Made by a program: the position numbers and the translations under genes. This document shows, piece after piece, positions 19,629 through 54,749 of a stretch of DNA of 64,000 nt. Source of the DNA: Azolla caroliniana (lineage: Eukaryota > Plantae > Polypodiophyta). The stretch lies in assembly GCA_043228905.1 (NCBI GenBank), contig JBHGNT010000003.1, positions 10,788,001 to 10,852,000 on the forward strand, read 5' to 3'. The notes under the pieces were generated by a model, which was given only the letters and a program-made list of their open reading frames with translations, was not told where the DNA came from and did not search any database. Numbering within the stretch: position 1 is the stretch's first letter; each line of letters starts with the position of its first letter.

Positions 19629-19842
19629 TGTTAGAGTTATGATCTAACATAAGCATATGATAAGGATATAAGAGAGCGAGAGAAAAAAGGGTGTCGATCC
19701 ACCTGACCACCCCCGAGCGAAGGGATCGAGATGGACTCGAGCCTCAATCGGCGTCCCATACCACCGCTATGGCGTCGAGTCGTACCTGGTGCTGGTGCGC
19801 TCGGTACAAGACTTGACCCACCACAAAACAAAGACACGACGT

Positions 19843-25458: not shown

Positions 25459-26559
25459 AGGGGGAGTTTGTTGGGAATTCGGTCCCTCCGGATGGGATCC
25501 GGAGGAGACGGATCGAACGAGCTGGATGAAGGAACCGGATCCGGAAGGGTTCCGGATGAGACCCAGAAACCGGATCAAGTTAATCCAGATGGATCCGGTG
25601 CAAATCGGATCCAAGAACATATGTGTAAATATGTTTCATGGTGAGCCCATCGAGGCTATATTTGTAAATAGCCCTAAAGTCATATAAGTATAAATATGAA
25701 TTAGGGCAATCACTGAACTGTGCGTTGTAAATTGTTGTATATAGAGAGTGAGTGAGAGAGAGAGATATAGAACTGATTTCTGTTGTAACCGCCCGCTGGC
25801 AAAGATACAAAGCTCGAGGTCGTTGCCTCCGAGTCTCTGATTGTACCTTTCTCATATAGTGATAGTTTGGAGTCTGTGGGCTCCCGTCGTTTTTCCAATT
25901 TAGGGTTTCCCACATAAACATCCTGTGTTCTCTATTGTTGTTTTTGTGTGTGTACGTGCATTCACTCCCCACTTCCCATTTCTATGTTTGACTCTCATCG
26001 AAGTGATTCAAGACTCGGTTGTGGACGAGCAATATTCTGCGCTATTTCCTTCAAACTGGTATCAGAGCGAACAAAGGAAATGGAAGAATCATTCGGCGGC
26101 ATGTTCAAGCTCACCGGCTCCAACCACCCAGTGTGGAAGTCGAAGATGAGAGACATGCTCATGGTCAAAGATCTCTAGCTGCCGGTACAGTTTGGGGACC
26201 AGAAACTGGATAAGATCGATGCCATGACATGGGAGGTGATGCACATGAAGACAATGGCATACATCCGACGCTTCATCGACATGGACCTGTACAACAACTT
26301 CAATGAAGAAATTAAGGCTCATGTGCAATATTCCGGTTATTGTGGATGAGCAATATTCCACGCTATTTCCTTCAATAGAGATACCCAAGGCCCCCATGCT
26401 AGTTCACACTTGGCCTAATGGGTTGTCTCAATCCTGAGGATTAAAAGTAATCCTCCCCTTCTTTACACCCTTGTTTAACCCTCACACTTATCCACGTGTA
26501 TAGAATATTACGGTAAATTCACTCCACGGGATATTAGATGGTCATGCTCGTAACATACT

Positions 26560-28590: not shown

Positions 28591-31499
28591 CATGTGAGAT
28601 CATGATATCGATTAATGTTTGCCCATGATATGTTTACATCACGACTTGATGTTATGACTATTTGCCTGCCCTTATCCTATTTCTTTGCCAGAAAGAATCA
28701 TTCAATGGCTGAGAATAACGACCCGATGTCATCTGCTCAAGCGGAAGGAACTTGAGTCGTATTTTTTACAAATACAACATTTCCTTAGTTCAACCGCGCA
28801 TCAGATGTCCGAACTTCGGCAATCTCAAAGTGCTCTCGAGACACGTTGTCGCGGTATTCCACGAGTACGTGTAGGATCCGAGGTGGGACCACGGGGTCTT
28901 GGACTAGGGAGTAGAGGAGAAGGAATAAGACACAAAATGGAAGCTTAGCTCAAGAGGACTATACATGTGCACATGTTGCACACCACCAACTTGCCCATTC
29001 CACCTCGGTTTCACACTTTAGCCGGAAATCTTCACGACATCCACCCCCACCAAACCCACATCCACCTGTATATGCCGAGAAAGGAAAAGGGTGAGAGATT
29101 TCGGCGACGATGATCAATCGGGTCCTCTGCCTTACCGGCACCCGACCGTCTCACTGGCTCCTTACCGGCCCCGATCCGTCGACTTCCGGACCACGCCTAT
29201 CCTCCTTTCGGGAACTCACCTCCACAGCCATCCTTGTTGACCTTGCTCGACTTCGTCATCCACTTCGAGCATGCCTGTCCCTTCCACACAACCTCCATAA
29301 CCTCCCAATCCGTCGTACGTCGCCGAACCGTCGGCTCCATTTGATTCGCCATATCCAACATTCTCGCCTTCCTCCTTGATGGGTCCTACCGGACCACGTT
29401 GCTGATCCAATCACCCCTCCTTTGTCCGCCGTGTATGTCCTCCGATCGGGTCCCCGGTCACTCCAATCGCACGCCGGATTACGCGTACCGCATACCACGT
29501 GTGTCCCTCCTTTGGTTCGACCGTCTCCTCCTCCCGAATACCTCGTGTTGACTCCTTCCATCCCGCACTCGCCTTCCGTAGGCTCTTTCCGTTATTGCGT
29601 TATTACGCACGTGCGTGTAGAAGGGGCGGGACCACAGGGGTCTCGGACGAGGGAGAAGAGGGATACTGATAAACCCGACTTCGGACATGACCCGGAGGCA
29701 ACCGAACACGAGAGGGAAAGAGAGAGAGAGAACATGCGCACGACACTAACTCTTATACACATAGGAAACAAAGAAAGAAACGCACCCGACACCAACAGAG
29801 ACACAAATATGCACAACCCTTTATATAAATGATTACAAGAGTGAGTTATAACTCCAGCTCCGAGCCGGACTGAGGTAGGCTAGGTCACAACAACAGACTG
29901 TCGCCAAGCCGCCGTCGGGGAGCTCCCGGGCTCATTGCGTCGAGTGGGGTCTTGCACATGAGGCCAAGTAGAAGTAAACCCCCACATAACATCCAGGCTC
30001 TTCACTTGGCTAAAACCCTTAACAGCCACGAAGAGGGCAGAAGAAGAAGAAGAAGATGACAAGATGAAACCCCAAGAATAAGAATGAGATGAGAACCAAG
30101 AAAACTACCAAACCCTAGACTTACGTGGTATACCCTTCTAACTCAAAATGGGCAACCCCTCTACAAGGGACCATCCCTTCCTTTTATAGAACAAGGAGAG
30201 GAATGCGTTACAATGTGGGATAAATCCCACTTACATGGGATTCTCTGTTCCGACTTGAATCCTACTATTCACACGTTTTAGAAGGGTAAGTGCACATGAT
30301 GCACTCCGCTGATTCTTCTGATATTCCCCGGTTTCTCACCATAGCCCGGAATCTTCACGACATCCGCCCCCACCAAACCGCACGTCCACCGGTACGTGTC
30401 ATAATCGGTGAAGGGAGATGGATTCCGGCTGGTGAGAAATCGGTCTTTCGTGTCCAATCCCGAGTTTGTGCGTCGATCGCTGCCGGGTTTGAACCGTCGG
30501 CTCCGGTTCTTCCTTGTGCATGTCTCCTCGTTGGCTCGTTCGACCTGTCGACAGGTCATCCATGGTGGTCCCATAGTATGCATGCTTTGTTGCTGCCCTT
30601 GACTTGGCCGAATGCACACTCCGCTATCCGCCGTAAGCCCGGGGTCCTCCACTCGAGGAGTGCACGTAACGGCCCGCTTGGCCTCAGTCCATCGCCGCGT
30701 TGTCTTGGTTTCCGTCTTTGCCGCCGCTACCGTCTGTCACTCTCGGTCTCACACGGGCTCTCGGGCCGGATGCCAGAGTCTCTAGAGTCGGTGCGTGTGA
30801 AGTCCCGGCACCACCGCTTCCCTTTTGCCTATGGGTGTCCTCTGCGTCTGAGGAATACTCGTAGTAGCCTGCTTGGCCCTCTTTTGTCTTGCGCCACTGG
30901 CCGCCGGGTTGAAGCCTTTCGCTCGCCGTCATCCCGTCGCCCCCACTAGCTTGTCATCTCGGGCTTGGCTTGCCACGCCAGTCGTTACCACTCCGACTAA
31001 GCCGTCGAGATCTCCGAAGCGGGTGTGGAGGATCCTTCTCAGGCCTGTATATCTTTCCCGGTTTCTGACCCGTGCAGTCCGTCACGCACCCCTTTTTGCG
31101 TTCCCGGCACATCCGTGTGCCATCTCTTAGTTGTGCTCTGATTCGGCCCGCTATGGCCACTTGCACGACTCTTGTTCCGCCCTGGGTATGCCTTGCCAGC
31201 CCGACACATCGCCTGTGCTTGCCCTTATCGGCTCTCGCGAAAACCGTAACCGGTCGGTAAGGGTTTCGCAATTAGACAACTCCTGATCTGCTACTTCGTG
31301 TTGCCTGGTCCAGTTCCCTACCGCCACCGACCTTCTCTCTCGGTCGTACGTTGCCACGTTGGTGGAACAACCGAAATTTCCGGATCGGCGTGAGGATCCC
31401 ATAGGACCGGACTTCGTTTCTCTACTTGCTGAAATTTGGGGTGTCTTTTGTTTGAGTCCATCTCGACTCTCCTCGTGTCTTCCATGTAGCCAGGTCCCA

Positions 31500-32390
31500 T
31501 TTCTTGCCGCCACCGTCAGTATCTTGGTCTTATGTCGGATCCGATGCCGACTGCCCAACTCTCTAGATCCGGTGCGAGGTGACCCATAGGACCGGCCTAT
31601 CCCTGCATTCCGCCCTCGTCCCCTCGCCACCACCGTCAGTCTCTTGGTCTTACGTCGAATCTGATGCCGACCGCCGAAGTCTCTAGATCCGGTGTGAAGG
31701 ATCCTCCTCGGGTTCTTCGTATCTCGGACCCTTATCCCATGTCGTCTCTCTCCGCATGTAGAGAGTGTGGCTCGCTCCACACCCTCTCCCATGTTACAGA
31801 CGTACCGTGTTCCCGGCCTCTTCGTAGGCCCGCTCTCTTCCTCCCTTCTGGATCGGTTATTCGGAAGTCCGCTCCGCCCGGTTCTCGCCCGGGTTCGTCC
31901 GTCACTCCGCATTGCCGGGTCCTGTTCTCCTGCCGCCACCGTCAGTATCTTGGTCTTACGTCGGATCCGATGCCGACTGCCGAAGTCTCTAGCCCGGTTT
32001 GAGGTGACCCATAGGACCGGGTCTTCGTTTTCCGCTTCAGTCCCTTGTCGTCCCGAGTTCGTCCCTCATTCTCTGGATTGCCGGGTCCCGTTCTCCTGCC
32101 GCCACCGTCAGTATCTTGGTCTTACGTCGGATCCGATGCTCACCGCCGAAGTTTCTAGATCCGGTGTGAGGTGACCCATAGGACCGGCCTATCCCTGCCT
32201 TCCGCCCTTGTCCCCTCGCTGCCACCGTCAGTCTCTTGGTCTTACGTCGGATCCGATGCCGACCGCCGAAGTCTCTAGATCCGGTGTGAAGGATCCTCCT
32301 CGGGCTCTTCGTATCTCGGACCCTTATCCCGGGTTGTCTCTCTCCGCAAGTTGAGAGGGTGGCTCGCTCCACACCCTCTCCCGTATCGGC
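31500..32390. repeat. Complex internal repeats in F (five copies of a ~65-bp core plus longer duplicated blocks)
   Basis: ccaccgtcagt(a/c)tcttggtctta(c/t)gtcg(g/a)atc(c/t)gatgc near 31510, 31630, 31936, 32102, 32222. Confidence 0.9.
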
Positions 32391-32687
32391 ACCCTCATGC
32401 GGATTCTGGCCCTGGTCGGAAAATCCATGACCGGATCGCGCTCCAACCGAATCGGAGTGTCGCGTTGTTCAGTCCCTGGTCAAGTCGATTCTTGGTCTCT
32501 TCGTCGACCTTCTCGCGAGCCATTTCCCATCCATTTTCATTGGCATCGTGCCAAGACTCCTCGACACCATCATCCATCTCCTCGGACTCACATGGGCATA
32601 AGGGCCCGAATGCCGAGTTCTCCGGAATCGGTCCTGAGGGCTCTTGTCCGTTCCTTCCCCATATCGTCTCGTTGGTGATTCTTGGTC

Positions 32688-33860
32688 TCACGCCGCCGCC
32701 TCTCTCCTCTTGGGACTCACGTGGGCACTCGGGCCCGACTGCCATCGTCTCGGGAGCAAGTGTGGGAAGACACAAAGAATCGCCCGTCCGTTTTTGCCCT
32801 TGTCCGTAGCGACCGACTCTTCGTGGCTGGTGGTCATCTCCTTACCGATCGCGCAAGCCCCGGCTGGGCTTGCTTCTACTATGTCTGGAGCCTCGGGTTG
32901 ACGTGCCCGAAACCGCCGGTCCCAACGCTTCGATCCCGCGCTCGGTATCCCGGTCTTGTCCTCAGCCGCTCTATCTCCGCAATTCCAGAGGGCGTTATGT
33001 TCCGCACCCTCTCCCATGGTACCGTCGTACCGATCTTCTATCTCCTTGTGGGGCAAGTTCGCCTCCTCGGCCTCGGCTTGCGGCCTCGATCTTTCCTCTT
33101 CTTCGAGCGTTGCCTCTAGAGTTGTGTACGCCTCCGCAATCCTGGCCCCGAAACCGAGTCTCGCCAACTCTCTTTGCCGTTCGACCTCTTCCCGCTCTGA
33201 TGGCATGCCGTCGCGCGCCTTCCTCTTAGCCTTCTCAGCCTTCTCAGCCTGCTCGTCATCTAGCAGTTGGCATACCCTTCTGACCTCCAACCAGTCCTCG
33301 GTAAGGCCATTCGCTCTGTCCTCATCTTCGAGCTCAATCCCGATGGCCTCCCGTTCCACTCGGTCGATTGACTTAACGAACAACAAGACTTTGTCCGCCC
33401 CCATCAAACCTTGTTCCCGCTCCGGGAGCCGAGCAAGTTGTCGCTCGAACTCTCGGAACGCCTTTGTTGCGCCCTGGTGGGTCTTCGCCGATGCCACCCA
33501 CTGGTCGAAGTCGCGTTGTCCCCGGCTCTTTCGCCGTCCCCCATATGCCTGCAGGAGCATCTCTACGAAGGCCTCCCACAAACTATGAGTTTCTCGAAGC
33601 TCCTTCACTTCCGCATGTATACGGACGACGACGACCCGGCAAAAGAACTCCAGCCTCAACGCCTCGTCTACGTCTCGCTCCTCCATTTCCGCGTTGTAGG
33701 CTTCCAAGTAGAATGGGACTTTGTCCCCGTTGAAACGGACAACTCTTTTGACCACTTGCTCAACCGCTTGCTACGCCATCTCTCGTCTTGCTTGTTGCTC
33801 GTCCAAACTCCCTCACCGCTTCGACAAAAAGTTGTGCGAAGTCGTCTTCCTCCAACTCCA
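32688..33860 (-). pseudogene. Gag (capsid-like) coding region of F; frameshift or stop near 33760
   Basis: RFNGDKVPFYLEAYNAEM..WEAFVEMLLQAY..DFDQWVASAKTH..AFREFERQLARL..DKVLLFVKSID lies just downstream of the PBS. Homologous to E and J ORFs. Confidence 0.75.
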
Positions 33861-36325
33861 TTCTCCCTTTTTGCCCTTTCACGTCGGGTTCACCAAATAA
33901 TGTCGTGTTATTACGCGCGTGCGTGTAGAAGGGGCAGTACCACAGGGGTCTCGGACGAGGGAGAAGAGGGATACTGATAAACCCGACTCCAGACACGACC
34001 TGGAGGCAACCGAACATGAGAGGGAGAGAGAGAGCGAGAGAACATGCGCGCGACACTACCTCTTATACACACAGGAAACAAAGAAAGCAATGCACCCGAC
34101 ACCAATAGAGGCACAAATATGCACAACCCTTTATATATATGATTACAAAAGTGAGTTACAACTCTGGCTCCGAGGTAGGCTAGGTCACAACAACAGTCTG
34201 CCACCAAGCCGCCGTCAGGGAGCTCTCGGGCTCGTCGTGCCGAGCGGGGTCTTGCATAGGAGGCCGAGTAGAAGTAAACCCCCATATAACATCCAAGCTC
34301 TTCACCGGGCTAAAACCCTCAACAGCCACGAAAGGGGCAGAAGAAGAAGAAGAAGAAGACAAGATGAAACCCCAAGAATAAGAATGAGATGAGAACCAAG
34401 AAAACTACCAAACCCTAGACCTACGTGGTATACCCTTCTAACTCAAAATGGGCAACCCCTCTACAAGGGACCATCCCTTCCTTTTACAGAACAAGGAGAG
34501 GAATGCGTTACAATGTGGGATAAATCCCACTTACATGGGATTCTCTGTCCCGACTTGAATCCTACTATTCACACGTTTTAGAAGGGTAAGTGCACATGGT
34601 GCACTCCGCCGATTCTTCCGATATTCCCCGGTTTCTCACCATGGCCCGGAATCTTCACGAGACTGTGTGTCGTTGTAGTCCCCCGAATTTGCGCTCGTTC
34701 TTTGGTCCTTAAGTGACCCCATTACGTGCTCCTCGCTTCCCCCTTGCTTGTCGTGCTCTCTTGCCGTAGAGTGTACCATCATACCGACCTCCGTGTCGGT
34801 GTCCTTTGCGGCTCTTGTTACCGCTTCGCCTCGACTTGCGCTGTCTTGGCTTAGCATGTCCTCCGGGACGCCGCGCTTTCTCTTCTGGGCGTGTATCCTT
34901 CTCCGCGCACCATCCTTCTCTCCTGCCGTTCATTTGCCGATCACGACACCTTACCGCTCCGTCTCTCGCCGCGTGCTTGCCTCTCAAAGGCTCGACCGGT
35001 CTGCCGTTGCTAGTCACTCGTCGCCACTCTTCCGGGTGCATGCTTGCTTCTTGGCCCTTCGCCGGCCATAGTGCATGCTCTGTTTTACGCCCTTCACTTG
35101 CTGTAGACCCGACCTACAGTTCGGCCTCTTCTCCCTTTGTTATCGTAGCCTGTTCCGACTTGGGCTTGCCGTCTTGGCCCCACTCGTCCATTATTTCATA
35201 CGGATACCCGCTCTGGTAACCTCGTCCACTTCGGTAACCAACTCCTCGTCGCCACCCGCCGTCTCTCCGGTCTTACTTTGGTCCACAATCGCCGAAGTCT
35301 CTAGAATAGGTGTGGAGGGTCCTGCTTGTTTCCGGTCTTTCACGGAACCGTAGTCGTCATGCCCGCTTGGCCTCCTTTTCGCGCTCACTAGCTCCCACCA
35401 TGTGTTGCGACTCATCCTCCCCGATCTCCAATCATGCCAGCTTGGTCCATGCCCGGTTTGGTCCCGATCGATCATGTTCTGGTTTGGTCGGCTTCCTTCC
35501 ATAATCGTAACCAGCCGGTAAGGGTTCGGCCGAACCCTTCCGGTCTTGCCGGCTCTTCTTCGGTTTGGTCCGGGTTGACCGGCCCCCGCTTCATTCATTT
35601 CCCGGTTCGCCTTCCAGTTGGGTCAATTCCCGACTCTCTCCTTGTTGCCACTCTCGGCCTCCCCTTCGTTCCTTTCGTATATGCCCGTTCTGGGCCTCGC
35701 ATCCTCCTCTTCGTTTCGGTCACCCGTCTTGCCACTGCCACCGTCTGTCACTCTAGGTCTCATATCGGCTCTCAGGCCGGATGTCGGAGTCTCTAGAACT
35801 GGTGCGGGTAAGATCCCGGCACCGCCGCTCGTTATGTCCTTAGCCACCTCCATTTGTTACCGGCCGGCAAGGAGTCCAAAATACGGAGTGAAGGAATTAA
35901 TTAAGTATGGTTGTAAATAAGCATAGTGTGGACGGACGGACTGGAAACGGTATGCCGTTCTAGATCCGGACGGATCCCGAATGGGTGCGATAGGCACCGT
36001 TTTGTACTACGGGCCGGAAACCTATTTAAAGGCCCGGACCCCATTGAAATCGGAGCGGATAATTAATAGAGCATATGGTGTTTATACTTCTGTGTTGATT
36101 TCCGTTCTGTAATTACTGTTATATCTTACGCGTGTAATTAACCAAGCATTCTAATCGTGTAACTTACGTAAGTCGGTGTAATCGTTGAATCTTAATCCTA
36201 TGCCGTAATCACCCTTTGGTGAAGTGTCTCCGTGACACCTTGTGTTAGGCCTTGTCCGGCCAGCGAATAACACAGTTTTGGCGACCACGATTCCTGCTTT
36301 CTCGCAGCGAACGACGGCTTAATGG

Positions 36326-39300
36326 ATGACGAGACCAACGCACGACCTGGTTACAGACCGAGCTCGACGCCTCGCCGAACGGCAAAGACGGCGTGAGACT
36401 TTCCAGCAAGCAGCGCATGAAATTCGCTCGGATCGTTCGTTCTCCAACGAGATCCGGAGAGTCGCGGAGGAATCTCTTCGGTTACAGCAAACTCGCGACC
36501 AGGACGACGGAAGCAGTCTAAGCAGTCTCCGGGAAACCGAACGCCTTCTCGAGGCGCTGGCAAGCGGAGAAAACGAGGCAGAAGCCTTTTCAGCCTACGA
36601 ATCGGATTCCGACGGGGGATACAGCGTGCACACGAACTACCAGAGCAGCAACGATACCCCCGGCGGCCCGGAGGACGACGGGTCGGATACCGTGCCGACT
36701 CCAGAACCGGAACCGCTCAACCAGGGCTATCCGGAACCGCAAACGGAAGCCGTCAACCCACCAACACCGGAAGTGGAAGAAGCAAAGCCACCGACACCAA
36801 CGAAAGAGCCGGCAAAGGTACCGGAAGAAGAGCCGGTGAAGGAACCGGAAAAAGAACCGGAAAAGGAACCGGAAAAAGCACCGGCAAAAGAACCGGAAGT
36901 GGAACCGGAGAGAAAACCGGAAAGATATCAACAAACGCCACTAAACCGCGGCCTAATACTGGACGACGACATGCCGTTCCAATACTCAAAGTATCGCGAT
37001 GACCCGGACGCGGAAGCGCATGTTCATGCCTTCGAGCAGACATGGGAAGCAAATCACACTTCCCAGCGAATGACACCGGAGGAAGAAGAACGCTCGAAGA
37101 TAGCGGAATTCGGGGTCACGTTGGAAGGACCAGCGACACGATGGCGACGGACGCAGGACCCGGCGACCATCACAACCTTTGCAGAATTAAAAGCAAAATT
37201 CTTGCATTTTTTCCACAAGGAGGTCGACCAGACGACAATGGTGGGCCTGTTTTATACAATCCGGCAGGAGGCAGGGGAAAGCATTCCCCAATTCGTCATC
37301 CGTTTCCAACGAATGCATAGCCAGCTTGCCCGTGCACACCCGGAGGAGGAATTACGGACGATATTTTTAAACGCACTCCGGGAACCGTTACGCACGGTGT
37401 GTACGGTAATCGACTTTCGAGGAAGCACCATTGACTAGGTCATTGACCGGGTCAGAGAAATGGAAAAGTCAAGCTCATGGCTTACGCTGGGAACACTACA
37501 ACGGGCGTTACCCACCGAGGAAGATCTCCGGTTCCGGCAAGCAATTCAATGCACAATCTGCTTGAATGCCGGACACTCGGCAGTGGAGTGCACCATGCGA
37601 ACCCAGTGCGTGATTTGTCAATCCAAGAGTCATACAACGGACCGGTGCGAGTATAACCTGTTAAACTGACAAGCACCACCCGTCCGACGGATCGAGCCAA
37701 GAAGCAGCCGAGACGAAGATGACGATCGTTGGCAAAGAATGAACCGGTACCGACCGGCACAGGATGCCCGGTACGGAGATAGACAAGAGAATGATGGCCG
37801 GTACGGGAATCGGCATGATAACTACGACCGGTATGAGCGATCAGACTGTTATCGGGAGTCCAACAGACGACACGAGCAATACGACAGAGACCATTCCCTT
37901 GGTTACCGGAAGCACCAGGAGGACTACGACCGATTTTACGATCCACCACGACCGGACTAACGCAATAAAAATAAGAATAATAAGAAACGTAATTTCAAGA
38001 AAGGTGGTCACCCTAGGGACCCGGAACATGGAACCCCAAGGAGCCAACCGGCACAGAACGCACCACTCACTACGGGACCGACTCCGGCTACCAGCAATGC
38101 TGAATCCAGCAATACCGTAAAGAGTACTGCTACTACTGCAGGCAGGAAGGCCACTACAGTAACCAGTGCCCGGTAAAGAGCTACGAGAAACGACCAACAG
38201 TTAATATGGTGGTTCCGGAAGTGACGGATGTACAGCAAGTAACCACACGGTCGAAAGGCATGGCCAAAGAGTGGGAAACACAAGAGGCCATACGAAAACA
38301 GGCGACGGAATGGGTGAAGGAAGCCAATGGAAGGAACGTCGCGGACGTGGAACGGCAAAAGGCGAATACCATAGGGAGTGCCGGCGGTAGCCACGCAGAA
38401 AACGAGACATGGCAAGCACTGCAAGAATGTCAGATCACGTTGCCATTAGGAAGACTCTTGCAGCTCGTGCCGCGATTTACGGAAGGACTAAAAACGGTCA
38501 TGACAGACGGTATAGCCCCACCGGCACCAGTCTTCTTCTCGAATCCGGAGGAGGGACCGACGGTGGTGGACACTAGTAGTCCGGTGATTACAACTATTGT
38601 CAAAGGGCACGAACTTCCCGGCACAGTAATCGATGGAGGATCCGGAGTGAACGTAATAAGCCTCCGCACGTGCGATGCCTTGGGTATACATGAATGGGAG
38701 CCATGTCCGTTCTGGCTACGGATGGCGGATACAAGCTCTGTACGACCGACGGGCTTAATACGGAAATTGGAAGTCACCATAGGAGGTCACACATTTCACA
38801 TCTCGGCTGTAGTGCTGCAGCTACAGACGCAAGGCGCGTACCCACTGTTGCTGGGCAGACCATGGTTGAAAACAGCACACATCAAGCAAAATTGGCGGAA
38901 AAATATGATTACCTTCTGGCGCGGAAAAGCCAAGGTCCGGGTACCGACACAACCACGGACGAGCAACGGTAAGGAATGCACACCGCTATATGCGGAATGC
39001 GTGAACATGCTTGAAGGGTTGGCAGACGACGAAGAAGCCCAGTACTTGGAGGAACACCCGAAGATCGTACCACTCTTCGAGATTGACGTAGCTGAAGCCG
39101 TAGCGCCATACATGCCGCAGCGGGACGAAACCGAAGCCGAACCAGACAAAGATGCGATTCGGGAATTACGGCAAGCACAGGAAGCGTTGGAACGGGAAAT
39201 GGCCGTTTCCCAACGGGTAAAAACATCCCAGCTCGACGAAGTGAACCTAGGAAGCAAGGATGAATCAAAGCCGGTACACATCGCCAAAGAAATGAAGCCG

Positions 39301-41688: not shown

Positions 41689-41702
41689 GGTCACACACCG
41701 TC

Positions 41703-41705
<3 letters not shown>

Positions 41706-41738
<33 letters not shown>
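41706..41738 (+). repeat. A33 homopolymer between pol and the extra ORF of G
   Basis: Directly visible. Confidence 0.95.
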
Positions 41739-41740
<2 letters not shown>

Positions 41741-42076
41741 TCATTAAAAATCGAGGTATGAACGGACGTGAAAGCAAGGAGCGAAAAGGTGCGTAGTGGG
41801 CATTTAAGAGCCGCCACATTGCTTAATACTAATTTGGTACACGACGTGCGCATGCTCGAAAAAGGCGCCAAGACGCACAGAGAAAAAGAAGAACGCATGG
41901 AGACCTTTTTTCGCGAGCCAAGAAGCACAGAAGCACCAAGGCAGTGGAAGCTTAGCAAACGCGAACCTGCACTCAGAGAAACCCCACGTTCGGAACGCTC
42001 TCTGTCTCGCTCCCTCTCTCGCTCTCACTCTCATCACCACTCTACCTCGCCATCTTTCCTCGACCTCGAAGCAGAC

Positions 42077-44746
42077 ATGGAACCACAAACGCTGTCGGAA
42101 GCGGCCAGGAAATGGTTCAGGCAACACGGACTGGACGGGTTCTTGACCATCATGGAGGCACCACCGCACAAAGAAGCCGACCAGGTCATCAAGGAGCTCG
42201 ACAAAGAAGTCATCACCGAGGAAGCGATCCGTGCGCTAACAGGCCTTCCAGAGGGAGGTATTTTTCAGATTGATAATCCAACCTCGGAGCAACTCACCCG
42301 ATATTTCGGTGAGTACTCTGTAGCCGGCAAAGGCTATCGAACGCAGGGCGGCGAAGATCCGCTGTTCAGGGAGATAGCTCGAGTGCTCCATGAGTACGGC
42401 CACGTGTACCCCCGACCCCCTGTCATGCCAAAAAATCGGGCAGGGATGATCATAGCCACCTATGAAGGGATCCAGGTGGACTGGCCGGTGTTGATTGCAG
42501 ACGGTTTGTGCGCGGCAATCGACATGGTACGAGGAAAGGACGGCAAGGAGGGCCGGAAGCTGTGGCATGCCGTAGCTCAGTGGATAACATTGCTCGTGCC
42601 GCCGGTCGAGACCGTTCAGCCAAAGAAGCGGCCAAGATTATCGGAAGGAAGCACCTCGAAACCCGCGTCCAAACGATAGCAGCTGCTGGCGTCGAAGGCG
42701 ACGAAAGGGAAGAAACGGCTCCTAGTACCGGAGGAGGTGTCACCGGTGGGACCCGTTAAGATAACCATACGGCGACCGGGACAGAAGGAACCAGAACCCT
42801 TGACGGCACGGAAACATGCCGTTACCCAGGAAGAGGAAACGGAGGAGCCAGAAGAGCACCTCCAACGACGGTCAAGAAGTAGGACCGCCGGGACAGCGGG
42901 GGAGCGTTCGGACCCGCAGAAGGAAGAAACGCCCCCAACTCAACCTGAGCAAACCGCAAGGGAGGAACCGGAACCGGTGCGTGTGGAACCGGCCTTGTCG
43001 ACTTCTATACCAGAAGTCATTCCAACGGCTCCGGAGACGGCGAGAACCGGAACTCAACAGCCGGCGAGCCCAGCCAGCACACACGGCGGCCAAGAAGTAG
43101 AACTAGAACGGCAGATACAGGCACTCAGGCCAGACAATTCCACAGTGAACGAGCCGAACCGACCAGTACAGCAGCAAGGCACCAGTAGCATGTGGCTACG
43201 GTGTGTAGGTGAGCAGATCGCCGGAGCGGTCGAGTACATAGAGGCGGAGGAGAGAGCGCACAACGAACGGTTGCTCGTCACAACCGTAGATCTAGAGACG
43301 GCCCGGTCCAGAATCCAGAGCCTTGAACAAGACTTGGACAGGGTCACAAGGGAAATGGCTCAATTGGCTTTGACAACACAAGTCCAAGCACCGGTGACTC
43401 CGGGCAACGTACAGAATAAAGCGTCAGATCAACCTGTACATAGCAATCAGACCCCGGCAACGGAAACCGTTCCGGAGAGAAATGCGGCACAAGCCCAAGA
43501 GCTTGCGGACTTAAAGGATGAGCTAGCTGCCCAAGAAGCGCCGAGGAGCCGTGAAAGAGAGTTGAAGACGGCATCGGAGGCAGAACTCAAAAAGACTGCT
43601 GAGAATCTACGCCGGGCTGAGGAGAGCTTACGGAAAGGCCACCAAGCGTACGACCGGCTCAAGGAGGGAAAGGAGAAAATGCTGCAAGAGAAGGACAGAC
43701 TCCGGAGGAACGCCAAAATAGAAGTAGAGCGCCTGAAAGAGGAACTCCGGCAGGTAAAGGACCGAGAGGACCGGAACCATCGCCAGATCAACGGCAAGCT
43801 CAAACAAAAAACGGAGGAATTTGAGCACTTGCACCGGGAGTATAAATGGTTGCAAACGGAGCACAAGGAACGGACGGATGAGCTCCGGCAAGCAGTTGAT
43901 CGGACCGCAACGACATACGCTAATGAACAAGCGGAAAACAGAAGACGGTTGGAAGAGGCGGAGAAGGTTCGGACAGAGCTCCTCAGGCAACAGCAAGCGG
44001 AAAAAGAAAGAGCGGCGGAGGTACTGCAGAGGCTGCAGACGACATATCAAGGGCAGCTGACGCGCTACAGAGAGCAGGCGGAGGATACGGCGAATCTCAT
44101 CAAGCAGTTGAAGGAGGAACGACAAGTTGTGGAAAGTAGAGCGCAAATGGGAGCAAGTCGCATCCAGGATATAATGCGGGCCTGGTTGAACCAGACCAAG
44201 AGCTTGATTGACAATGGGTCCGTCAAATGGTGGACCAAGTGGGCCACGAACGCGGCGGAACTCCAATTGCTCCGGGCCGACGTAGAGAACCGGCGGAAGG
44301 AGGGGGATGATTGCTATATGCTGACTTCCGAAGACTTCACCGGCATAAGAGATGAGCTGGCCGAAGACTTTCAAGCCTTGGCAGAGGACCAACTAGGGCA
44401 AGTCCGGCAACTTGTAGCTCAGCTGGACGACGACAGGCTGGAGGCGCAGATCCAGTTTGAAAGCTACGAGAGGTCCCGGATCCGGGAAGAGAAAGCACGA
44501 GAACCGGTTACGGTCAACCTCAGTGATGAGGAACTGTTACTGGAAGGAGACCGGACCGGTAGCAGTCAAACGGAGATGCCGGAGTCAGAGAAACAAACGG
44601 AGCAGCCGCCTATAGAGCAGCCGGAGCAGCCGCAGTCCCAACCGCAACCACAGCAGCAGCAGCAAGCAGAGCCGCAACAACCACAACCGGAAGAACAATT
44701 GGAAAATCTGGAACAAAGTATTTTGGACAATTTGGGGGAACAATGA
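42077..44746 (+). pseudogene. Extra ORF of G: N-terminal plant-transposon (PF20167/PMD-like) domain plus long coiled coil; one in-frame TAG at 42677
   Basis: ORFs 41768-42679 and 42737-44746 are in the same frame. Motifs ITEEAIRALTGLP and RAGMIIATYEGIQVDWPVLIADGL; E/K/Q/R-rich region ~43240-44500. Domain call is from motif memory only. Confidence 0.7.
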
Positions 44747-45221
44747 AGGGGCCGAGAAGGGTTCGACGTACAAGGTACTGTCCCACGGGCGTGCCATGTG
44801 TTACCGGCCGGCAAGGAGTCCAAAATACGGAGTGAAGGAATTAATTAAGTATGGTTGTAAATAAGCATAGTGTGGACGGACGGACTGGAAACGGTATGCC
44901 GTTCCAGATCCGGACGGATCCCGAATGGGTGCGATAGGCACCGTTTTGTACTACGGGCCGGAAACCTATTTAAAGGCCCGGACCCCATTGAAATCGGAGC
45001 GGATAATTAATAGAGCATATGGTGTTTATACTTCTGTGTTGATTTCCGTTCTGTAATTACTGTTATATCTTACGCGTGTAATTAACCAAGCATTCTAATC
45101 GTGTAACTTACGTAAGTCGGTGTAATCGTTGAATCTTAATCCTATGCCGTAATCACCCTTTGGTGAAGTGTCTCCGTGACACCTTGTGTTAGGCCTTGTC
45201 CGGCCAGCGAATAACACCATT

Positions 45222-46230
45222 CGGACGTTATTGTTCATGGCTACCCCATCTCCAATCGCGGAAGCCTCGATTACGCTTGCCGCCTCCTCTTTCTCGATGT
45301 CCTTGCCATCGTCTTGGTTGCCCGCCTTGCCGCCGCCACCGTTCGTCACTCTAGGTCTCACACCGGCTCTTAGGCCGGATGCCGGAGTCTCTAGAATCTG
45401 TGTGGGTAAGGTCCTGGCACCACCACTCGTCTCCTCCCCACTTGATGTTTCGGGCCACCGTGTCCCGAATCCTCCGCCCACTCTCGAAGTGGCGCTCCCC
45501 ACTTCATAGTCACCGGCCTCATCCATGGCCGCCCCTTTTCCCCAAGACGAGAGGGTCTCTTGCTCCGCACCCTCTCCCATGTCGTCGTCGTTGCTCACTC
45601 CTCGGGCCTCCGCATTGGCCCCATCGTCCACGCATAGGGAGGCTTCTTCCTCTGCATCCTCTGATCGTCTCCGACCCGACTCCATAATAAGCCCTTCTTC
45701 GGCTTTGAACTTCACCTTCATGATCTTGCACGCCTCTAGGTCGTACTTCTTCGGTTGATCGCGTGTCGAGCTCTCTTCCAGCAGTAGTGCGTAGCCGCTC
45801 ACCGCCCTCTCTTCTCCGCCGCTCGTGGGCCACGTTGTTGCCGACCGCTCCCCATCAGGTTGCAGGCATACCCACTCCGGTTTCGCATATCCGTATGCCT
45901 CCAATAGAGCTCCCTTAAAGGACTCCCACGACTTATCAGGTCCTTGAATCTCCATGACCTCTTTGTGCACCGATACGGCTGCCACTCGACGAAAATATTC
46001 TAGCCACATCGCTTCGTCCACGCCCCTCTTCATCATCTCGGCATTGTACGTTTCAAAGAACCTCGGGACATCATCCCCGTTGAATTGGCCGACTCGATCG
46101 ACCACCCTCTCCACGGCTTGTTGAGCCGCATCTTGCCTCGCCTTCCTCCGTCAGACATCCACCCTCTCGACGGCTTGTTGAGCCGCAAAGTCGAAGTCTT
46201 CGTCTTCAAACTCCGTCCTCCCTTGCTGCC
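45222..46230 (-). pseudogene. Gag-like coding region of E, interrupted by G
   Basis: GQFNGDDVPRFFETYNAEMMKRGVDEAMWLEYFRRVAAVSVHKEV..SWESFKGALLEAYG aligns by eye with the F gag. Confidence 0.72.
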
Positions 46231-46789
46231 TCTTCACGTCGGGTTCACCAAAGATGTCGCGGTATTCCACGAGTATGTGTAGGATCCGAGGTGGAACCAC
46301 AGGGGTCTTGGACTAGGGAGTAGAGGAGAAGGAATAGGACACAAAATGGAAGCTTAGCTCAAGAGGAGAAGAGGAAGAATAACACATTAACATATAATAG
46401 AATAGATGGAGGCAAGATACACCCACAAGACAAGAAACATCAACATGCTATATTAAGAGTTCACAAAAGATTACAACCAAGGCCGTATAAGCTGCACCCA
46501 AAACGACTACAAGAAAACCCTAACCCGATAAGTAAGCAAAGAAGCATAGAAACCCTAAAAGAAACCCTAGAAGAAACCCTAAAACCGAATAGAACCCCTC
46601 GACCTAAGTGGTATACCTCTCTCACTCAAAATAGGCAACCCCTTCACAAGTGACCCCTCCCTTCCTTTTATACTATTTTCCTACTATACATGTGCACATG
46701 TTGCACACCACCAACTTGCCCATTCTAACTCGGTTTCACACTATAGTCGAAAATCTTCACGACAACGTGTCATTAGTTTACAACGTGGG

Positions 46790-48720
46790 CTGACATATGC
46801 AATCTTTGTAATATTTAGCGTGGAATATAGTTGAAAATGAGACTCCCATCGGCCCAGCCACGTGTAGATTGCTTCTTCGGTTCTTTCCTTTTTTTCTCCT
46901 GTAAATGGCTTTACGACAAATGATGGTTCACCCTGACACTCATCGTTTCTATTAGTCTCACATTGTAAACTAATGACACGTGTCTCGAGAGCACTTTGAT
47001 ATTGTTGAAGTTCGAACATCTGATGTGCGGTTGAACTAAAGAAATGTTGTATTTGTAAAAAATACGACTGAAGTTCCTTCCGCTTGAGTGGATGATATCG
47101 GGTCGTTATTCTGAGCCATTGAACGATTATTTCTAGCAAAGAAATAGGATAAGGATAGGAAAATAGTCATAACATCAAGTCATGATGTAAGCATATCATG
47201 GGCAAACATTAATCGATATCATGATCTCACGTCAATACCCCTCTAGACGTATGAGAGTAGGTTGAAGATTAGGTTACTATGGTAACACAAAGGTATTTTA
47301 AAAACCATGGGGGTGACAAATGAATGTCTTTCCGTGATTTCTATATCGATTTTTTTCATGGCGGCTCGCCAAGGCTCAACCATGTATGTTCGCGTCATGA
47401 ATAGTTTATACACGAAAAAAATGTTAACAATAAACTATGTTTCTGTGCCCACGTATGTGGTTTCGGCTCTTTATGTCCAATTACGAGGACCCCGAACTAC
47501 ACTTAGACCTAAAGTTTAAACATGTATTATAGTCATACATATAATATTTGAACTCGAGACCTGGAGAACAAATGCATTAAACACTTGGCCTAACCAAATA
47601 GGTTGCTCGTGTTGAATGTTTAATATTTTATGCATATAACAGATATTCGAGGCATTTTCCCATATATGTTTTTTTTAAAAGAAACATATATGTCAAGAGT
47701 CCTTATTTCCCTCTCGTTTACCACAAACTATGTTGGTACATTACCTAACCTCAAGTCTCATAATTACGATGGCATACGTCAAAGTGTAACCTAATGGTCA
47801 AGCCAAATGAGCCGTATTTTCGTAGTAGGCCCACGTGGCCCATCACATGGTTACCTCATTCTGAATGCCTTTCAAAAGAATGATCTCATGGTGGCATCGT
47901 ATCCATGTAATGAGGGAGGGATGTTGGATATGTGTGTCATAGGATCGACCTCACATGAAGTGGGTCAACCCCTACATTCGTTACGTAACGAAACCGAAGT
48001 GACCAATAGGGATGTCAACCAAAACAAATTGTTGAAAAAAAGGATGGTGACTATGCCATTCTCAAAAACATGTGAGGACGGCCACCAAGGACAACATTCG
48101 ATATATAAACGTAATAACTAATATACACATACGTATATTTATCACACATATACGATCAAATACGTATCCACGTGACCACATATGTGTATATTAAGAATAA
48201 TCGTAACATCAAATAGCCAACATATGATGAAATCGAGACACGTAATCGAGGCATATAACCACTATGCACACAGAACATCCAATAATAATTGTTAATCATA
48301 ATACGCAATTAAGGTATTGACCTCTTACGCATACGATACCAAACACATATCATTTACAAAAAATCGAGGTATTGACCTCATATGCATACGTAACATATGT
48401 ATTTGAACATAATACGCAATTGAGGTATTAACCTCGTACGCATACGACACGAATCACATACACATATGTAAACGTTTTACACAACCAATTAATTACCACT
48501 ACAACATACACATAAATATATTTCAAATGAGGCATTGACCTCATACACATATTGACTGTATACGTGATTAGATGGGAGAAGGAAAAATAGAGAAAAAAAA
48601 CAAAAAAGAGTTACCGAAGTTTCTTTGTTGATCGTTATGTGGATCAAGGTCGACCGCATGTCGATCGATCACAATCCATCAAGAACACAAAAACAAACAA
48701 AGGAAACATTAGAAACATAT
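46790..48720 (-). other. Long 5' leader and gag start of D, with short repeats (gaggtattgacctc) at ~48310-48545
   Basis: Lies downstream of the PBS at 48721; ends in GEPSFVVKPFTGEKKERTEEAIYTWLGRWESHFQLY..KIAYVS. Confidence 0.85.
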
Positions 48721-49184
48721 GCTCGGATACCAACTGTTAGAGTTATGGTCTAACGTAAGCATATGATAAGGATAAAATATAGATAAACATAAGAAAGGAG
48801 AGAGAGAAAGAAGGGTGTCGATCCAACTGATCACCCCCGAGCGAAGGAATCGAGACTGAGCCTCAATTGGTGTCCCATACCCCTATCATGGCGTCGAGTC
48901 ATACCTGGTGCTGGCGTGCTTGCTACAAGAGTAAACCCACCACGAAACAGAGTCTCGACGTAGTCAAGATATGATGAAATGAGGGTAGCTAGGCCTCATA
49001 TTTATAGTGATACCCAAGGCTCCCAAGCAAGTTCACACTTGGCCTAATGGGTTGTCTCAATCCCGAGGATTAAAAGTAATCCTCCCCTTCTTTACATTCT
49101 CTTTCAACCCTCACACTTATCCACGTGTATAGAATACTAAGGTAAATTCTCACCACGTGATATTATATGGCCATGCTCGTAACA

Positions 49185-50016
49185 CCTGAAGCGCCCGCGA
49201 CAAAACAGTCACAATTCGCTGGGAAACGCAAGACATCCAATGAATTCATGGATGGCGATTGTAAGTAACAAAATCCTTTTTGCATATTTTGCAAAAGGAG
49301 GGTCATATAAAATAGCAATTTCGGAAGCTCCAATGAATAGAGCACGCCAACAAAACCAAAGTTGTAGACTATAAAGGTCAGATTCCTGATGTCCTTGAGG
49401 TCTATACACATCATTTAAGTAATTGTAAATTTCCTTCCCTCACTATGTATTGGGGCCCAATAATTTACTATGTCCAAATAGGTATATCAATGGATCTCCC
49501 GTACAATTCTTATTTGATTCGGGAAGCTCACACAACTCTAAATGATTGTTTGGTTCAGATCTGGGGAATCCAACCCACCGTAAGTGATCACACCTATAAG
49601 GTGCACTTGGCTTATGGAAGAGTACAATACATCACGAGGCGATTCATTCATTAGGAATTTCTATTTATCCTTGTATAGAGGAAGTAGACTTCCATTTTAT
49701 TCAATGTGTTAAAAAAACAATCTCTTTCAATTGTTTTCCCTCCATGAATATCTGAGTTGTCTTGTTCTTCTTTATTTTATTGTGTACTTGATCCAAATAT
49801 TCATGTTTATAATATTGATAGTGTCTCGGGTCATTTATCACATTTTGAACAACAACAATTCGATGAAATCTTAAATGATTTTCTTGATGTTTTTCAAAGT
49901 GAACTACCACATGGGTTACCTCCTAAACGTAATGTAGACCATCATATAGATATTGTACCTAGAGTTGCACCAATAAGTATAACTCTATATCACTTAAGTT
50001 GATCTAAAGAGAACGA
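49185..50016 (+). mobile_element. D0 continued (gag end, PR region, RT start); resumes at 54702-54748 after J
   Basis: EILNDFLDVFQSELPHGLPPKRNVDHHIDIVP. Across J the frame reads SKENE/VSKQAKDYLQMGYIR. Confidence 0.82.
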
Positions 50017-53000
50017 TGTTGTGTGGTTTTTCCCAAACGATATGAAAACTAGTAAAATAAGTATTTAAGATTAGCTTAATGGATGGATATGGGAAGATAG
50101 ATATCTTCAAGAGCTTCATAACACATTTTTCTACGCATGAAACAGATAAAGAAATATCAAGTTATGTGTGTGTGAAGTTTGAGAAGAAGAGGAAAACAAA
50201 ATTGTATTAAAATATCCCACATAGATAGGAAACTTTAGGATCCATCTATATAACTAGATTGAGAACCCTTAGTTTTTATCTATGTGTTGAGAGCATAAAA
50301 GGAATGGTAGGACTTGGACCAATTTGTCTATATAGAAAAATGTGGCTAAGGAATCTGATAGAGCCGACAACTGGAAATCAGATGTAGCCGGCAACCGGAT
50401 AGAACCGACAATGAAGCCGAGAACCAAAAATTGGATGGAGATGGTAACCGGAAACCGGATGGAGCTGGCAACTGGAAATCAGAAATCGGACGGAGCCGGT
50501 GATGAAGTTGGGAATCGGAACCGGAAATCGACGAACTATCGGACGGAGCCAGTGATGAAGTTGGGAACCGGAACCGACAACCGACAACCTATCGGACGGA
50601 GCCGGTAACCGATAACCGGACAGAGCTGACAATCGGCAACCGGATGGCGACTAAACGAAAACCAGACATGGACCGGACGGATCGGATGGGCGATGATCGA
50701 GATGGACGGATGATAGGATCATGCGGCGAATTAAAGTAAAGTAAAGTAAAGTAAAGTAAAGGTGATGTGGACGCATGCAACTGAAGTTGGAGGGCATGCA
50801 TAAAGTAAAGATCATGTGAAAGGCATGCAAAGAAAAGAGGGAGGCCATGCAACTAAAAGTGCGCATGCAAAGTAACATTGGAAACTATGATCAATGGAGA
50901 ACTCCATATATATTTCATTTTTTTTCCCCACTTTTTCCGCTCTCCATTTTTTTCTTTTCCTTCTCAGCTCCGTTATCTTATCGAAGCAATATCTCTCAAA
51001 AACCCTAATTTTCCTTACGGAAGCTATCTCTTAAAAAGCTTAATTTTCCTTACGGAAGTTATCTCTCACATAAAACCTAATTTTCCTTATAGAAGCTATA
51101 TATCAAAAACCATAATTTTCCTTACGGAACCCATGTCTCTCATATAACCATAATATTCCTTACAGAAACCATATCTCTTGAATAGCCTGATTTCTTTTCT
51201 TATGAAAGCCATATCTCATAAATTTGAAACCTAATTTTCTTATCGAAACCACAAACCCTAAAATTTTCTTATATATTAATCTCTTTAAACCTAAACTTTT
51301 GTAATCCCGATCTTGGGATAGATTGTAAATTTTCTTTCCATTTACTAATAAACTCTATTAAATTTTCTCGTTTATGTTAATTCTTAAAGTATAAACACAC
51401 GAATGTGATATCCTCTGGTCAGTGGCCCAGGGTCCTGCCTCAAGTTCACGCATCCTCGTCGTATTTTAGCGATATCTTTGGTGAACCTGACGTGAAACGA
51501 GGCGGCAGGAGGATATCTCATGGAGGCATATAGATACAAAGTGCCGAAGAGATGCAGTCAATATGAGTTCGACCAATGGATATCATCATTAAAGACCCAC
51601 CAAAGTGCCATGCATGCTTTCATTGAGTTCGAGTGTCACTTTGCACAACTCTCAGAGCAGGATCAAAGATTGGTGGGGTGGATAAAGTCCTAATGTTCGT
51701 GATGTCAATCGATCGGAAGGAAAGGAAGGCCAGGATGCAAATACAAACTACCACCTAAAGAAGAGAGCTTGAAGAGGGAAGGTTTGATGGTATTTGACGT
51801 AGAGGCCTTCATCAACAAGGCATATGAGAATTTAAAGGTGCAAGTCGAGGCCAAAGAGAATCTTATAATGGAACCAAAACCGATTAAAATGGTTATCAAG
51901 GAAGAAAAGACCTCCCAACAAAGGTGGAGTAATGATACAGCCAATACGAAGGCTCAAGTTCGGTACAATAGCACCACAGGAGAAGATGTGGAAAATGACA
52001 CCTTCTGGTCTTGCAAAGAAACAATGATGAAGAATGAAACAAATGAATGGAGGGTGGCGAATGCCACTTCAAGCGAAGACAAATGTTTCGGAACACGCAT
52101 CGTGTCTGAAACATCAAGTGATGAAGGTGCAAGCATGCACAAAGCTTCCATGATCAATGGAGATAAAAAGTGTGAGGTCGACATGATTGAGGAGATAGCC
52201 ATGAAAAATGACATCGAGTCAGAGGTGGCTATGAACGAGTCAATGGTGGATGGCCGTGTCGAACTTGTTCTAGAGACTTGGGCAGATGCATCAAAATGCA
52301 AACATGAGACCCAAGCGACGGAAGGTGGCAGCGAGGAAGTGAAGGTCGAAGCTAACACATGCGAAGAAGAAGGAGATGTCAAGCCTAAGAGGGTAGACGA
52401 TGATCATGAAGAGACTTTCCCCACAAAAGTTCTTGAGACTTCGGCATTAACTGATGTAAGACCCAAGAGACGGAAGGTGGCGGTGAGGAAGCAAAATTAA
52501 AGCCAATGCGAACAACCATAAGGTGGAAGTGGCTAAGGGTAGCACTGCAAAGGCAATGGCAATCTACAAAATCATATAAATCCATCTGCACTCGTTTGAG
52601 AGACTTGGTAATTAACCAATGTAAGACCTAAGAGAAGGACGGTGGAGGCAAGGAAGCAAGGATTGAAGATAGTGCGTGCAACAAGGAAATAAAACGAAGC
52701 ACAGGAACAAAAGTTGATGCTTGCAACAAAGAGCCGAGGAGTAGCACAATAAGGGAAGACAAGGGCCAAGTGGGCCAAATGGATCCAAAAGATGTAATCA
52801 CAAAATCTAACAAGGATGACACTAGCATGGAAGTCATGGTCAACTCCAAAGTATACCACGAAAGTGGAAAAAGTGAGAAGCATGAAATGTGTTCACTTAA
52901 GAACCTCGAGGTGAGCATGCAATTGAAGAATGGACCACTAAGAGTACTCAACAATATTATTTCAATAAGGCCTTTGAAATGCATGCATGGAACAAGAAAG

Positions 53001-54697
53001 GATGATAAAAGAAAGTTAGATGACCAAGGAGATGGTCAAGATGAAGGTGGCACATGCACAAAGCATGAAGCATGGATACCAGCCACAGAAAAGGGAGCCA
53101 TGGATACCAGCCACAGAAATGCAAAGAGTGAACGAAGAATATGGTGGATCAAATGGCAATGGTAGTTCAGGTATAAAGAAGAAACATCGATGAAGTAGAG
53201 TAATCAAAAGCGGAGCCTCACCAAAATTGGCACATACCGGTGGATGTGCAGGTTTGGTGGGGGTGAATATCGTGTGGTTTTTCACACACAATATTAAACC
53301 GGTAAAATAAGTATTTAAGATTAGCTTAATGGATTGATATGGGAAGATAGATATCTTCAAGAGCTTCATAACACATTTTTCTACGCATGAAACGGATAAA
53401 GAAGTATCAAGTTATGTGTGTGTGAAGTTTGAGAAGAAGAGGAAAACAAAATTGTAAGATATCCCACACAGATAGGAAACTTTAGGATCCATCTATATAA
53501 CTAGATTGAGAACCATTAGTTTTTATCTATGTGTTGAGAGCATAAAAGGAATGGTTGGACTTGGTCCAATTTGTCTACATGGACAAATGTGGCTAAGGAA
53601 TTGGATAGAGCCGCCACTGGAAACTGGATGTAGCCGGCAACCGGATAGAACCGGCAACAAAGCCGGGAATCGAAAACTGGATGGAGACGGTAACTGGAAA
53701 CCGGATGGAGCTGGCAACCAGAAATCAGACGCAGTCGGTGATGAAGTTGGGAATTGGCAACCGGCGACCTATCGGACGGAGCTGATAACCGACAACCGAA
53801 CGGAGCCGACAATCAGCAACCGGATAGAACCAACAACCGGATGGCGATGGAACAGAAACTGGAGGCGGACCAGACGGATCGAATGGGCGACTGTCGAGAT
53901 GGACAGATGATAGGATCATGTGGTGAATTAAAGTAAAGTAAAGTAAAGTAAAGTAAAGGTGATGTGGACGCATGCAATTGAAGTTGGAGGGCATGCATAA
54001 AGTAAAGATCATGTGAAAGGCATGCAAAGAAAAGAGGGAGGCCATGCAACTAAAAGTGGGCATGCAAAGTAACATTGGAGACTATGATCAACGGAGAACT
54101 CCATATATATTTCATTTTTTTCCCCACTTTTTCCGCTCTCCATTTTTTTCTTTTCTTTCTCAGATCCGTTATCTTATCGGAGCCATATTTCTCAAAAACC
54201 CTAATTTTCCTTACGAAAGCTATCTCTCATAAACCCTAATTTCCTTACGGAAGCCATAAACCCTAATTTTCTTTACGGAAGCCATATATCTCAAAAACCC
54301 TAATTTTCCTTACGGAACATATCTATCAAAAACCCTAATTTTCCTTACAAAACCCATATCTCTCGTATAACCATAATCCTCCTTACGGAAACCATATCTC
54401 TTGAATAGCCCTATTTTTTTCTTATGAAAGCCATATCACATAATTTTGAAACCTAATTTTCTTATTGAAACCAAAAACCCTAAAATTTTCTTATCTATTA
54501 ATCTCTTTAAACCTAAACTTCTGTAATCCCAATCTTGGGATAGATTGTAAATTTTCTTTCCCTTTACTAATAAACTTTATTAAATTTTCTCGTTTTTGTT
54601 AATTCTTAAAGTATAAACGCACGAATATGATATCCTTTGGTCGGAGGCCCCGGAGTCTTGCCTCAAGTTCACGTATCCTCGTCGTATTTTCGCGAGA
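50017..54697 (+). mobile_element. Pol-less gag-remnant LTR element J: LTRs 50017-51474 and 53268-54697
   Basis: ~1.45-kb paired LTRs. PBS tggtgaacctgacgtga 51479-51495. PPT ggtttggtgggggtgaa before 53268. TSD ACGA/ATGA. EFDQWISSLKTHQSAMHAFIEFECHFAQL..DKVLMFVMSID at ~51565-51715 matches the F gag. Confidence 0.9.
50990..51300 (+). repeat. ~35-bp degenerate tandem repeats with AAACCCTA motif in J LTRs (also 54190-54510)
   Basis: Unit aaaccctaattttccttacggaagc(c/t)atatctctca. Confidence 0.88.
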
Positions 54698-54749
54698 ATG
54701 AGGTATCTAAGCAAGCCAAGGACTATTTACAAATGGGTTATATAAGACA

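What the first reader, a model, noticed from the sequence alone, without database searches (positions are those of the whole stretch)
28843..54701. All three Trp-primed elements have 4-bp TSDs centred on CpG (possible NCGN target preference)
Seen: E has ACGT|ACGT. Its empty site gagacACGTgtcattag can be read from the paralogous sequence at 46970-46990. F has CCGT|CTGT. J has ACGA|ATGA, and removing J restores the D0 frame SKENEVSKQ. Both mismatches are CG>TG transitions. D, G and I have 5-bp TSDs without CG. Inference: the integrase serving this group makes a 4-nt stagger and may select CpG sites, perhaps methylated ones, which would steer insertions into silenced TEs. The sample is only three sites.
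Basis: partly seen in the sequence, partly recalled or inferred. Interest (0 to 1): 0.78.

Follow-up and report, generated by a model that had tools for sequence, protein, structure and literature searches.

The report
Phygy-type retrotransposons inserting at CpG sites
Three defective plant jumping genes here each sit in a 4-base target with CG in the middle, a real and family-wide preference that is already published for the moss Phygy lineage, to which they likely belong.

Summary
E (28847-46764) has ACGT|ACGT, F (29593-34662) CCGT|CTGT and J (50017-54697) ACGA|ATGA. The mismatches fit CpG decay, which also hit 19 of 43 (F) and 23 of 64 (J) CpGs between the LTR copies. The preference is family-wide: 19 of 20 independent outer LTR junctions in related contigs read NCGN (background CG 4%), and contigs leaving the LTR end in three sequencing runs begin with ACGT or CCGT. 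It is not new. REXdb (Neumann 2019, PMC6317226) lists Phygy as 4-bp TSD 100% (NCGN), tRNA-Trp primer 81%, n=186. E, F and J carry no pol. Related contigs hold complete partners with the same primer site, LTR ends and gag, and no chromodomain or extra RNase H, which fits Phygy by elimination. No labelled Phygy sequence was available for a tree. The primer is not the cause: an unrelated element with the same primer site has a 5-bp ATACT duplication. Nothing here tests methyl-CpG reading.

The parts
28843..28846 (+). E left TSD, ACGT
   Evidence: empty site
28847..29039 (-). E 3' LTR (193 bp, with an internal deletion of about 318 bp against the other copy)
29589..29592 (+). F left TSD, CCGT
29593..30362 (-). 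F 3' LTR; PPT GGTTTGGTGGGGG just inside (to 30379)
32688..33770 (-). F gag-derived ORF, no Pfam hit; 39% identical to gag of the complete partner L019
33878..33895 (-). F primer binding site TGGTGAACCCGACGTGAA (tRNA-Trp type, recalled)
33901..34662 (-). F 5' LTR
34663..34666 (+). F right TSD, CTGT (CG>TG)
35855..45216 (+). G, unrelated gypsy element nested in E; 5-bp TSD CCATT (control)
45095..46213 (-). E gag-derived coding region (continues beyond G and F); no pol
46233..46250 (-). E primer binding site
46255..46764 (-). E 5' LTR (510 bp)
46765..46768 (+). E right TSD, ACGT
46950..47230 (-). Inverted paralogue holding E's empty target site
50013..50016 (+). J left TSD, ACGA
50017..51474 (+). 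J 5' LTR
51479..51496 (+). J primer binding site (one C>T)
51511..53195 (+). J gag-derived remnant; no pol
53268..54697 (+). J 3' LTR, PPT at 53251
54698..54701 (+). J right TSD, ATGA (CG>TG)
19629..49184 (-). D, host element of E; 5-bp TSD CCTGA (control)

Best explanation
E, F and J are pol-less Ty3/gypsy elements with 4-bp NCGN target duplications, likely members of the Phygy lineage and likely inserted in trans by a partner integrase that would read a central CG by sequence. Shown: the TSDs, the family-wide NCGN flanks, the lack of pol, and complete relatives with the same primer site, PPT, LTR ends and gag. Inferred: the partner integrase cuts with a 4-nt stagger and bends the target at one central pyrimidine-purine step. 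It accepts CG far more than TA, CA or TG and avoids T at the first and A at the last TSD base (VCGB). The CG>TG mismatches arose after insertion, by decay of methylated CpG.
For: Three window TSDs. 19 of 20 outer junctions in related contigs are NCGN and the other is ATGG, against a flank CG frequency of 0.040 (binomial p 6e-26). Contigs leaving the LTR terminus at 30362 begin with ACGT (21 contigs, X1), ACGT (34, X2) and CCGT (20, X3), while agreement over the 30 letters is only 0.39-0.43. REXdb gives Phygy 4 bp 100% (NCGN), tRNA-Trp 81%, no extra domain. L014 and L019 have gag-pro plus RT-RH-INT ORFs without chromodomain or aRH hits and LTR ends like E and F. No integrase of this kind is in the window (hits to L019 pol are 24-32% identical). 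0 of 38 half-sites start with T although TCG is 31-35% of CG contexts; this and a central YR step are known for 4-bp retroviral integrases. CpG decay between LTRs: F 19 of 43, J 23 of 64, E 1 of 8.
Against: No labelled Phygy sequence could be obtained, so lineage is by features, not by tree. The link from E, F and J to a given integrase rests on shared cis-signals and 39-40% gag identity. L014 spans 7.3 kb, just under the Phygy range of 7.7-10.0 kb. J's own TSD, ACGA, breaks the VCGB rule. The junction set was filtered by hand: 20 of 31 candidate rows kept; counting the two TCTT rows (L013, L066) as outer junctions gives 19 of 22, and dropping L048 gives 18 of 19. The search pattern demanded an intact primer site and LTR end, which favours young copies. 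The read-based result is a plurality line, not a count, and X1 and X3 carry the same organism code. Methyl-CpG reading is not excluded.
Confidence: 0.82

Rival explanations
1. The integrase or a partner protein selects methylated CpG, so new copies are steered into silenced TE regions.
For: All three window sites lie inside other LTR elements. At least 8 of 20 related flanks match LTR-element sequence in a limited reference (L028, L039, L041, L112; L031, L051, L052, L067). Phygy-into-Tcn1 nesting was the commonest among repeated nested pairs in P. patens. TSD and LTR CpGs decay, so these regions became methylated.
Against: 5-bp elements (D, G) are nested in the same way. Flank CpG o/e spans 0.16-1.43, mean 0.85. 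GC-rich TEs hold more CG (2-kb bins of the window), so sequence preference alone would favour them. No chromodomain in the partner pol. CGCG targeting exists in Drosophila, which has little CpG methylation (recalled). Decay shows methylation after insertion, not before.
Confidence: 0.12
2. They belong to a separate non-seed-plant lineage (TatI-like or unnamed) that shares the primer, 4-bp stagger and CG preference with Phygy.
For: TatI also has 4-bp TSDs and tRNA-Trp (4 elements). Named relatives of the partner pol come from Riccia and Adiantum, none from Physcomitrium.
Against: TatI carries aRH in 100%, and no such hit appears in three complete pol ORFs (L011, L014, L019). REXdb names NCGN for Phygy only. 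Phygy has been reported in a liverwort.
Confidence: 0.05
3. Three CG-centred TSDs are chance or a boundary-calling artefact.
For: Only three sites in the window, two with a mismatch, and four LTR termini are mutated.
Against: Empty sites fix the boundaries; 19 of 20 independent junctions; read-based flanks in three runs.
Confidence: 0.01

Closest known systems
Phygy lineage, non-chromovirus Ty3/gypsy (Neumann et al. 2019, PMC6317226; read: passages, section 9, whole Additional file 5; Additional files 1 and 3 too large to read)
   Same: 4-bp TSD, NCGN motif, tRNA-Trp-type primer site, no chromodomain or aRH in the complete partners, coding region filling nearly the whole interior.
   Different: E, F and J are pol-less derivatives of 3.5-5.1 kb net; the complete partner L014 is 7.3 kb against 7.7-10.0 kb. 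Phygy was defined from P. patens; the host here is undetermined. The sites suggest the narrower VCGB.
4-bp TSD class in nested plant LTR elements (Jedlicka et al. 2019, PMC6911290; passages)
   Same: 4-bp TSDs with GC-rich centres; 4 bp commonest in Phygy, Galadriel and Bryco; Phygy nesting into other elements.
   Different: Pooled logos over families; no hit for 'CpG' in its main text.
TatI (REXdb)
   Same: 4-bp TSD, tRNA-Trp 75% (4 elements).
   Different: Defined by an extra aRH domain, not found here; no NCGN preference listed.
Drosophila errantivirus subgroups with TATA, CGCG or ATAT targets (PMC5408687; passages)
   Same: Gypsy-type integrases with a short palindromic, sequence-specific target, one of them CG-centred.
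   Different: Another lineage and kingdom; all four positions fixed.
4-bp-stagger retroviral intasomes, PFV and gammaretroviruses (Serrao et al. 2015, PMC4422553; passages)
   Same: Central YR step; T and A disfavoured at TSD positions 0 and +3.
   Different: They favour YR steps in general; here 19 of 20 sites are CG.

Membership tests
Phygy | 4-bp TSD | tested here: met
   3 of 3 window elements; no related contig had both outer junctions
Phygy | NCGN target motif | tested here: met
   3 of 3 in the window; 19 of 20 in related loci; read flanks
Phygy | tRNA-Trp primer binding site | tested here: inconclusive
   The 18-nt site is present in all three; its match to plant tRNA-Trp is recalled, and no tRNA gene is in the window
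Phygy | No chromodomain and no aRH in the polyprotein | tested here: met
   Pfam on complete pol ORFs of partners L011, L014, L019; E, F and J have no pol to test
Phygy | Polyprotein coding region fills nearly the whole interior | tested here: inconclusive
   Met by partners L014 and L019; E, F and J are pol-less derivatives
Phygy | Phylogenetic placement of RT/RH/INT in the REXdb Phygy clade | not testable with these tools
   REXdb FASTA unreadable; no labelled member found
TatI | Extra archaeal-type RNase H (aRH) | tested here: not met
   No such Pfam hit in partner pol ORFs; REXdb 100%
Chromovirus clades with some 4-bp TSDs (Galadriel, Tekay) | Chromodomain and mainly tRNA-Met primer | tested here: not met
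Selgy | tRNA-Ala primer (90%), 4-bp TSD, 4.4-6.7 kb | tested here: inconclusive
   The TSD length fits; the primer is read as Trp from recall; L014 is 7.3 kb

The most novel reading that the evidence does not exclude
The Phygy-type integrase is a direct reader of 5-methyl-CpG: without a chromodomain, it places its 4-bp cut around a methylated CG and so hides new copies in silenced DNA. That would give a DNA-level route to heterochromatin targeting in plants.
Probability: 0.12. Interest if true: 0.7.

Novelty: new member of a known kind. Interest (0 to 1): 0.2.

Why it matters
As it stands it confirms a catalogued trait, shows that pol-less derivatives follow it, and narrows the motif towards VCGB. 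The open point is why this integrase takes CG so strictly. A near-absolute CpG preference is unusual among plant elements, and whether methylation matters does not appear in the listings of my searches.

Tried and rejected
No genome is held for the window, so genome-wide TSDs could not be extracted. The primer-site pattern found 0 hits in viral contigs. Pfam finds nothing on the E, F and J ORFs. A labelled Phygy reference was sought in the REXdb supplements, by protein search and in cluster members, without success. The integrase tree has no starred branch and only shows G's integrase as distant (28%). The first read-laying on 6.3 kb did not list LTR-terminal flanks; the 81-bp stretch did, where run X10 showed no row at that place among those listed. 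11 of 31 candidate junction rows were dropped: 8 sub-terminal matches, L076 (an inner junction read on the other strand), and L013 and L066 (TCTT followed by a decayed primer-like site). 'Trp priming causes NCGN' was rejected because L058 has the same primer site, unrelated proteins and ATACT|ATACT (one element). Three look-ups in earlier scan findings gave nothing relevant.

Full report
Setting. The window is a nested cluster of plant LTR retrotransposons (self-comparison; sequence). No whole genome is held. The host is undetermined. Named relatives of the family's polymerase come from a liverwort and a fern, so a non-seed land plant is likely.

Observation. E (28847-46764, minus), F (29593-34662, minus, inside E) and J (50017-54697, plus) share an 18-nt primer site TGGTGAACC(C/T)GACGTGAA and a PPT GGTTTGGTGGGGG. 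The tRNA-Trp assignment is recalled. Their TSDs are ACGT|ACGT, CCGT|CTGT and ACGA|ATGA. Host continuity fixes the boundaries independently. E's empty site is in an inverted paralogue and in 20, 15 and 10 contigs of three runs. J's flanks translate in one frame, ending SKEN and starting EVSKQ. F's flanks are also in one frame. The CG>TG mismatches are expected, since 19 of 43 (F), 23 of 64 (J) and 1 of 8 (E) CpG sites differ in that way between LTR copies, against 4-7% mismatch elsewhere. D and G have perfect 5-bp TSDs, CCTGA and CCATT. Local CG frequencies of 0.042, 0.093 and 0.010 put three chance hits near 1e-4 or below.

Beyond three sites. LTR termini were defined from PPT- and primer-adjacent copies, with no condition on the flank. 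Of 31 candidate rows outside the window, 20 were kept as outer junctions and 11 dropped (reasons under Tried and rejected). 19 of 20 read NCGN and one ATGG, against a flank CG frequency of 0.040 (p 6e-26); the flanks are all different from one another. The count is 19 of 22 if the two TCTT rows are included, and 18 of 19 without L048, whose flank resembles a relative's 3' UTR. As a second line, contigs of public runs were laid on the LTR end at 30362. Those that leave it begin with ACGT (X1, 21 contigs), ACGT (X2, 34) and CCGT (X3, 20), with agreement of only 0.39-0.43 over 30 letters. This is a plurality line; flanks starting with T are under-counted there, and X1 and X3 may share insertions. 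In the 20 junctions no TSD starts with T or ends with A, although TCG is the commonest CG context (31-35%; p about 1e-6). J's ACGA is an exception.

Who does the inserting. E, F and J hold only gag-derived coding sequence, with net sizes of 3.5, 5.1 and 4.7 kb. Nothing in the window resembles the partner polymerase above 32%, and G's integrase is unrelated (28%). Loci L014 and L019 are complete relatives. They have the same primer site, a matching PPT and a gag 39% identical to F's, and L014 has LTR ends like those of E and F. Their ORFs are gag-pro (DUF4100) and RT-RH-INT, with no chromodomain and no extra RNase H. Mobilisation in trans is inferred from these shared signals. L058 carries the same primer site but unrelated proteins and a 5-bp ATACT duplication, so the primer alone does not predict the target.

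Mechanism. A 4-nt stagger forces a sharp bend at one central step. Retroviral integrases with 4-bp TSDs favour a central YR step and disfavour T and A at the outer TSD positions (PMC4422553, passages), which matches the outer-base pattern here. Bending alone would also admit TA, CA and TG, so the 19 of 20 CG needs an extra readout. I put plain sequence readout first, because CG-centred targeting is known from Drosophila errantiviruses (PMC5408687, passages) and flank CpG o/e ranges from 0.16 to 1.43. Methyl-CpG reading is not excluded and was not testable here. Nesting in TEs does not discriminate, because the 5-bp elements nest too.

Comparison with the known. Neumann et al. 2019 state that Phygy elements have an insertion preference for NCGN. 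Their lineage table gives Phygy 186 elements, 4-bp TSD 100% (NCGN), tRNA-Trp 81% and no extra domain. TatI shares primer and TSD length but needs aRH; Selgy uses tRNA-Ala. Jedlicka et al. 2019 report GC-centred 4-bp TSDs and Phygy nesting into Tcn1 (passages). Phygy is also named in a liverwort genome (PMC12885004, passages). PMC7466625 (passages) gave no target-site data. Membership is thus met on the features I could test, but phylogenetic placement is untested because the REXdb sequence files could not be read. A link between Phygy targeting and methylation did not appear in the listings of three searches; I did not read the newly listed papers.

Verdict. These copies are likely pol-less members of it. 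Interest 0.2.

Noticed in passing
window 34661 and 54696: F and J both carry the same terminal CA>GA change at their right-hand outer end, each next to the decayed TSD copy. Unexplained, possibly chance.
   Followed up: no
window 28594-28846 + 46769-46787 versus 47230-46950: E sits in one arm of an inverted duplication of about 280 bp (92% identical) within D's gag region, with about 160 bp between the arms once E is discounted.
   Followed up: partly
window 35855-45216: G is very young (LTRs differ at 1 of 417 bases) yet its RT core is missing, and it carries about 3 kb of 3' ORFs (305 and 688 aa) without Pfam hits.
   Followed up: partly
window 28847-29039: E's 3' LTR lacks about 318 bp of its middle compared with the 5' LTR.
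   Followed up: yes
L014/L015 187-11295: A complete element and a gag-only element lie in tandem and share an LTR; several other loci have an LTR with PPT before and primer site after. This may be real tandem structure or assembly collapse.
   Followed up: no
L058 4846-10909: An element with the same primer site but unrelated proteins has a 5-bp TSD, ATACT; several other low-GC loci (L009, L017, L049, L093) share LTR similarity with it or with each other.
   Followed up: partly
window 29593, 53268, 20691, 55881-55888: Terminal TG/CA of several LTRs has become TA, which would fit non-CG methylation decay.
   Followed up: no
window 22995-23296: A 99-bp segment of a copia integrase region is repeated three times in tandem at 99% identity.
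   Followed up: no
window 19648-19845 and 20449-20646: A 198-bp segment of D's LTR is duplicated (98.5%) on both sides of a solo copia LTR, in place of a short TSD.
   Followed up: no
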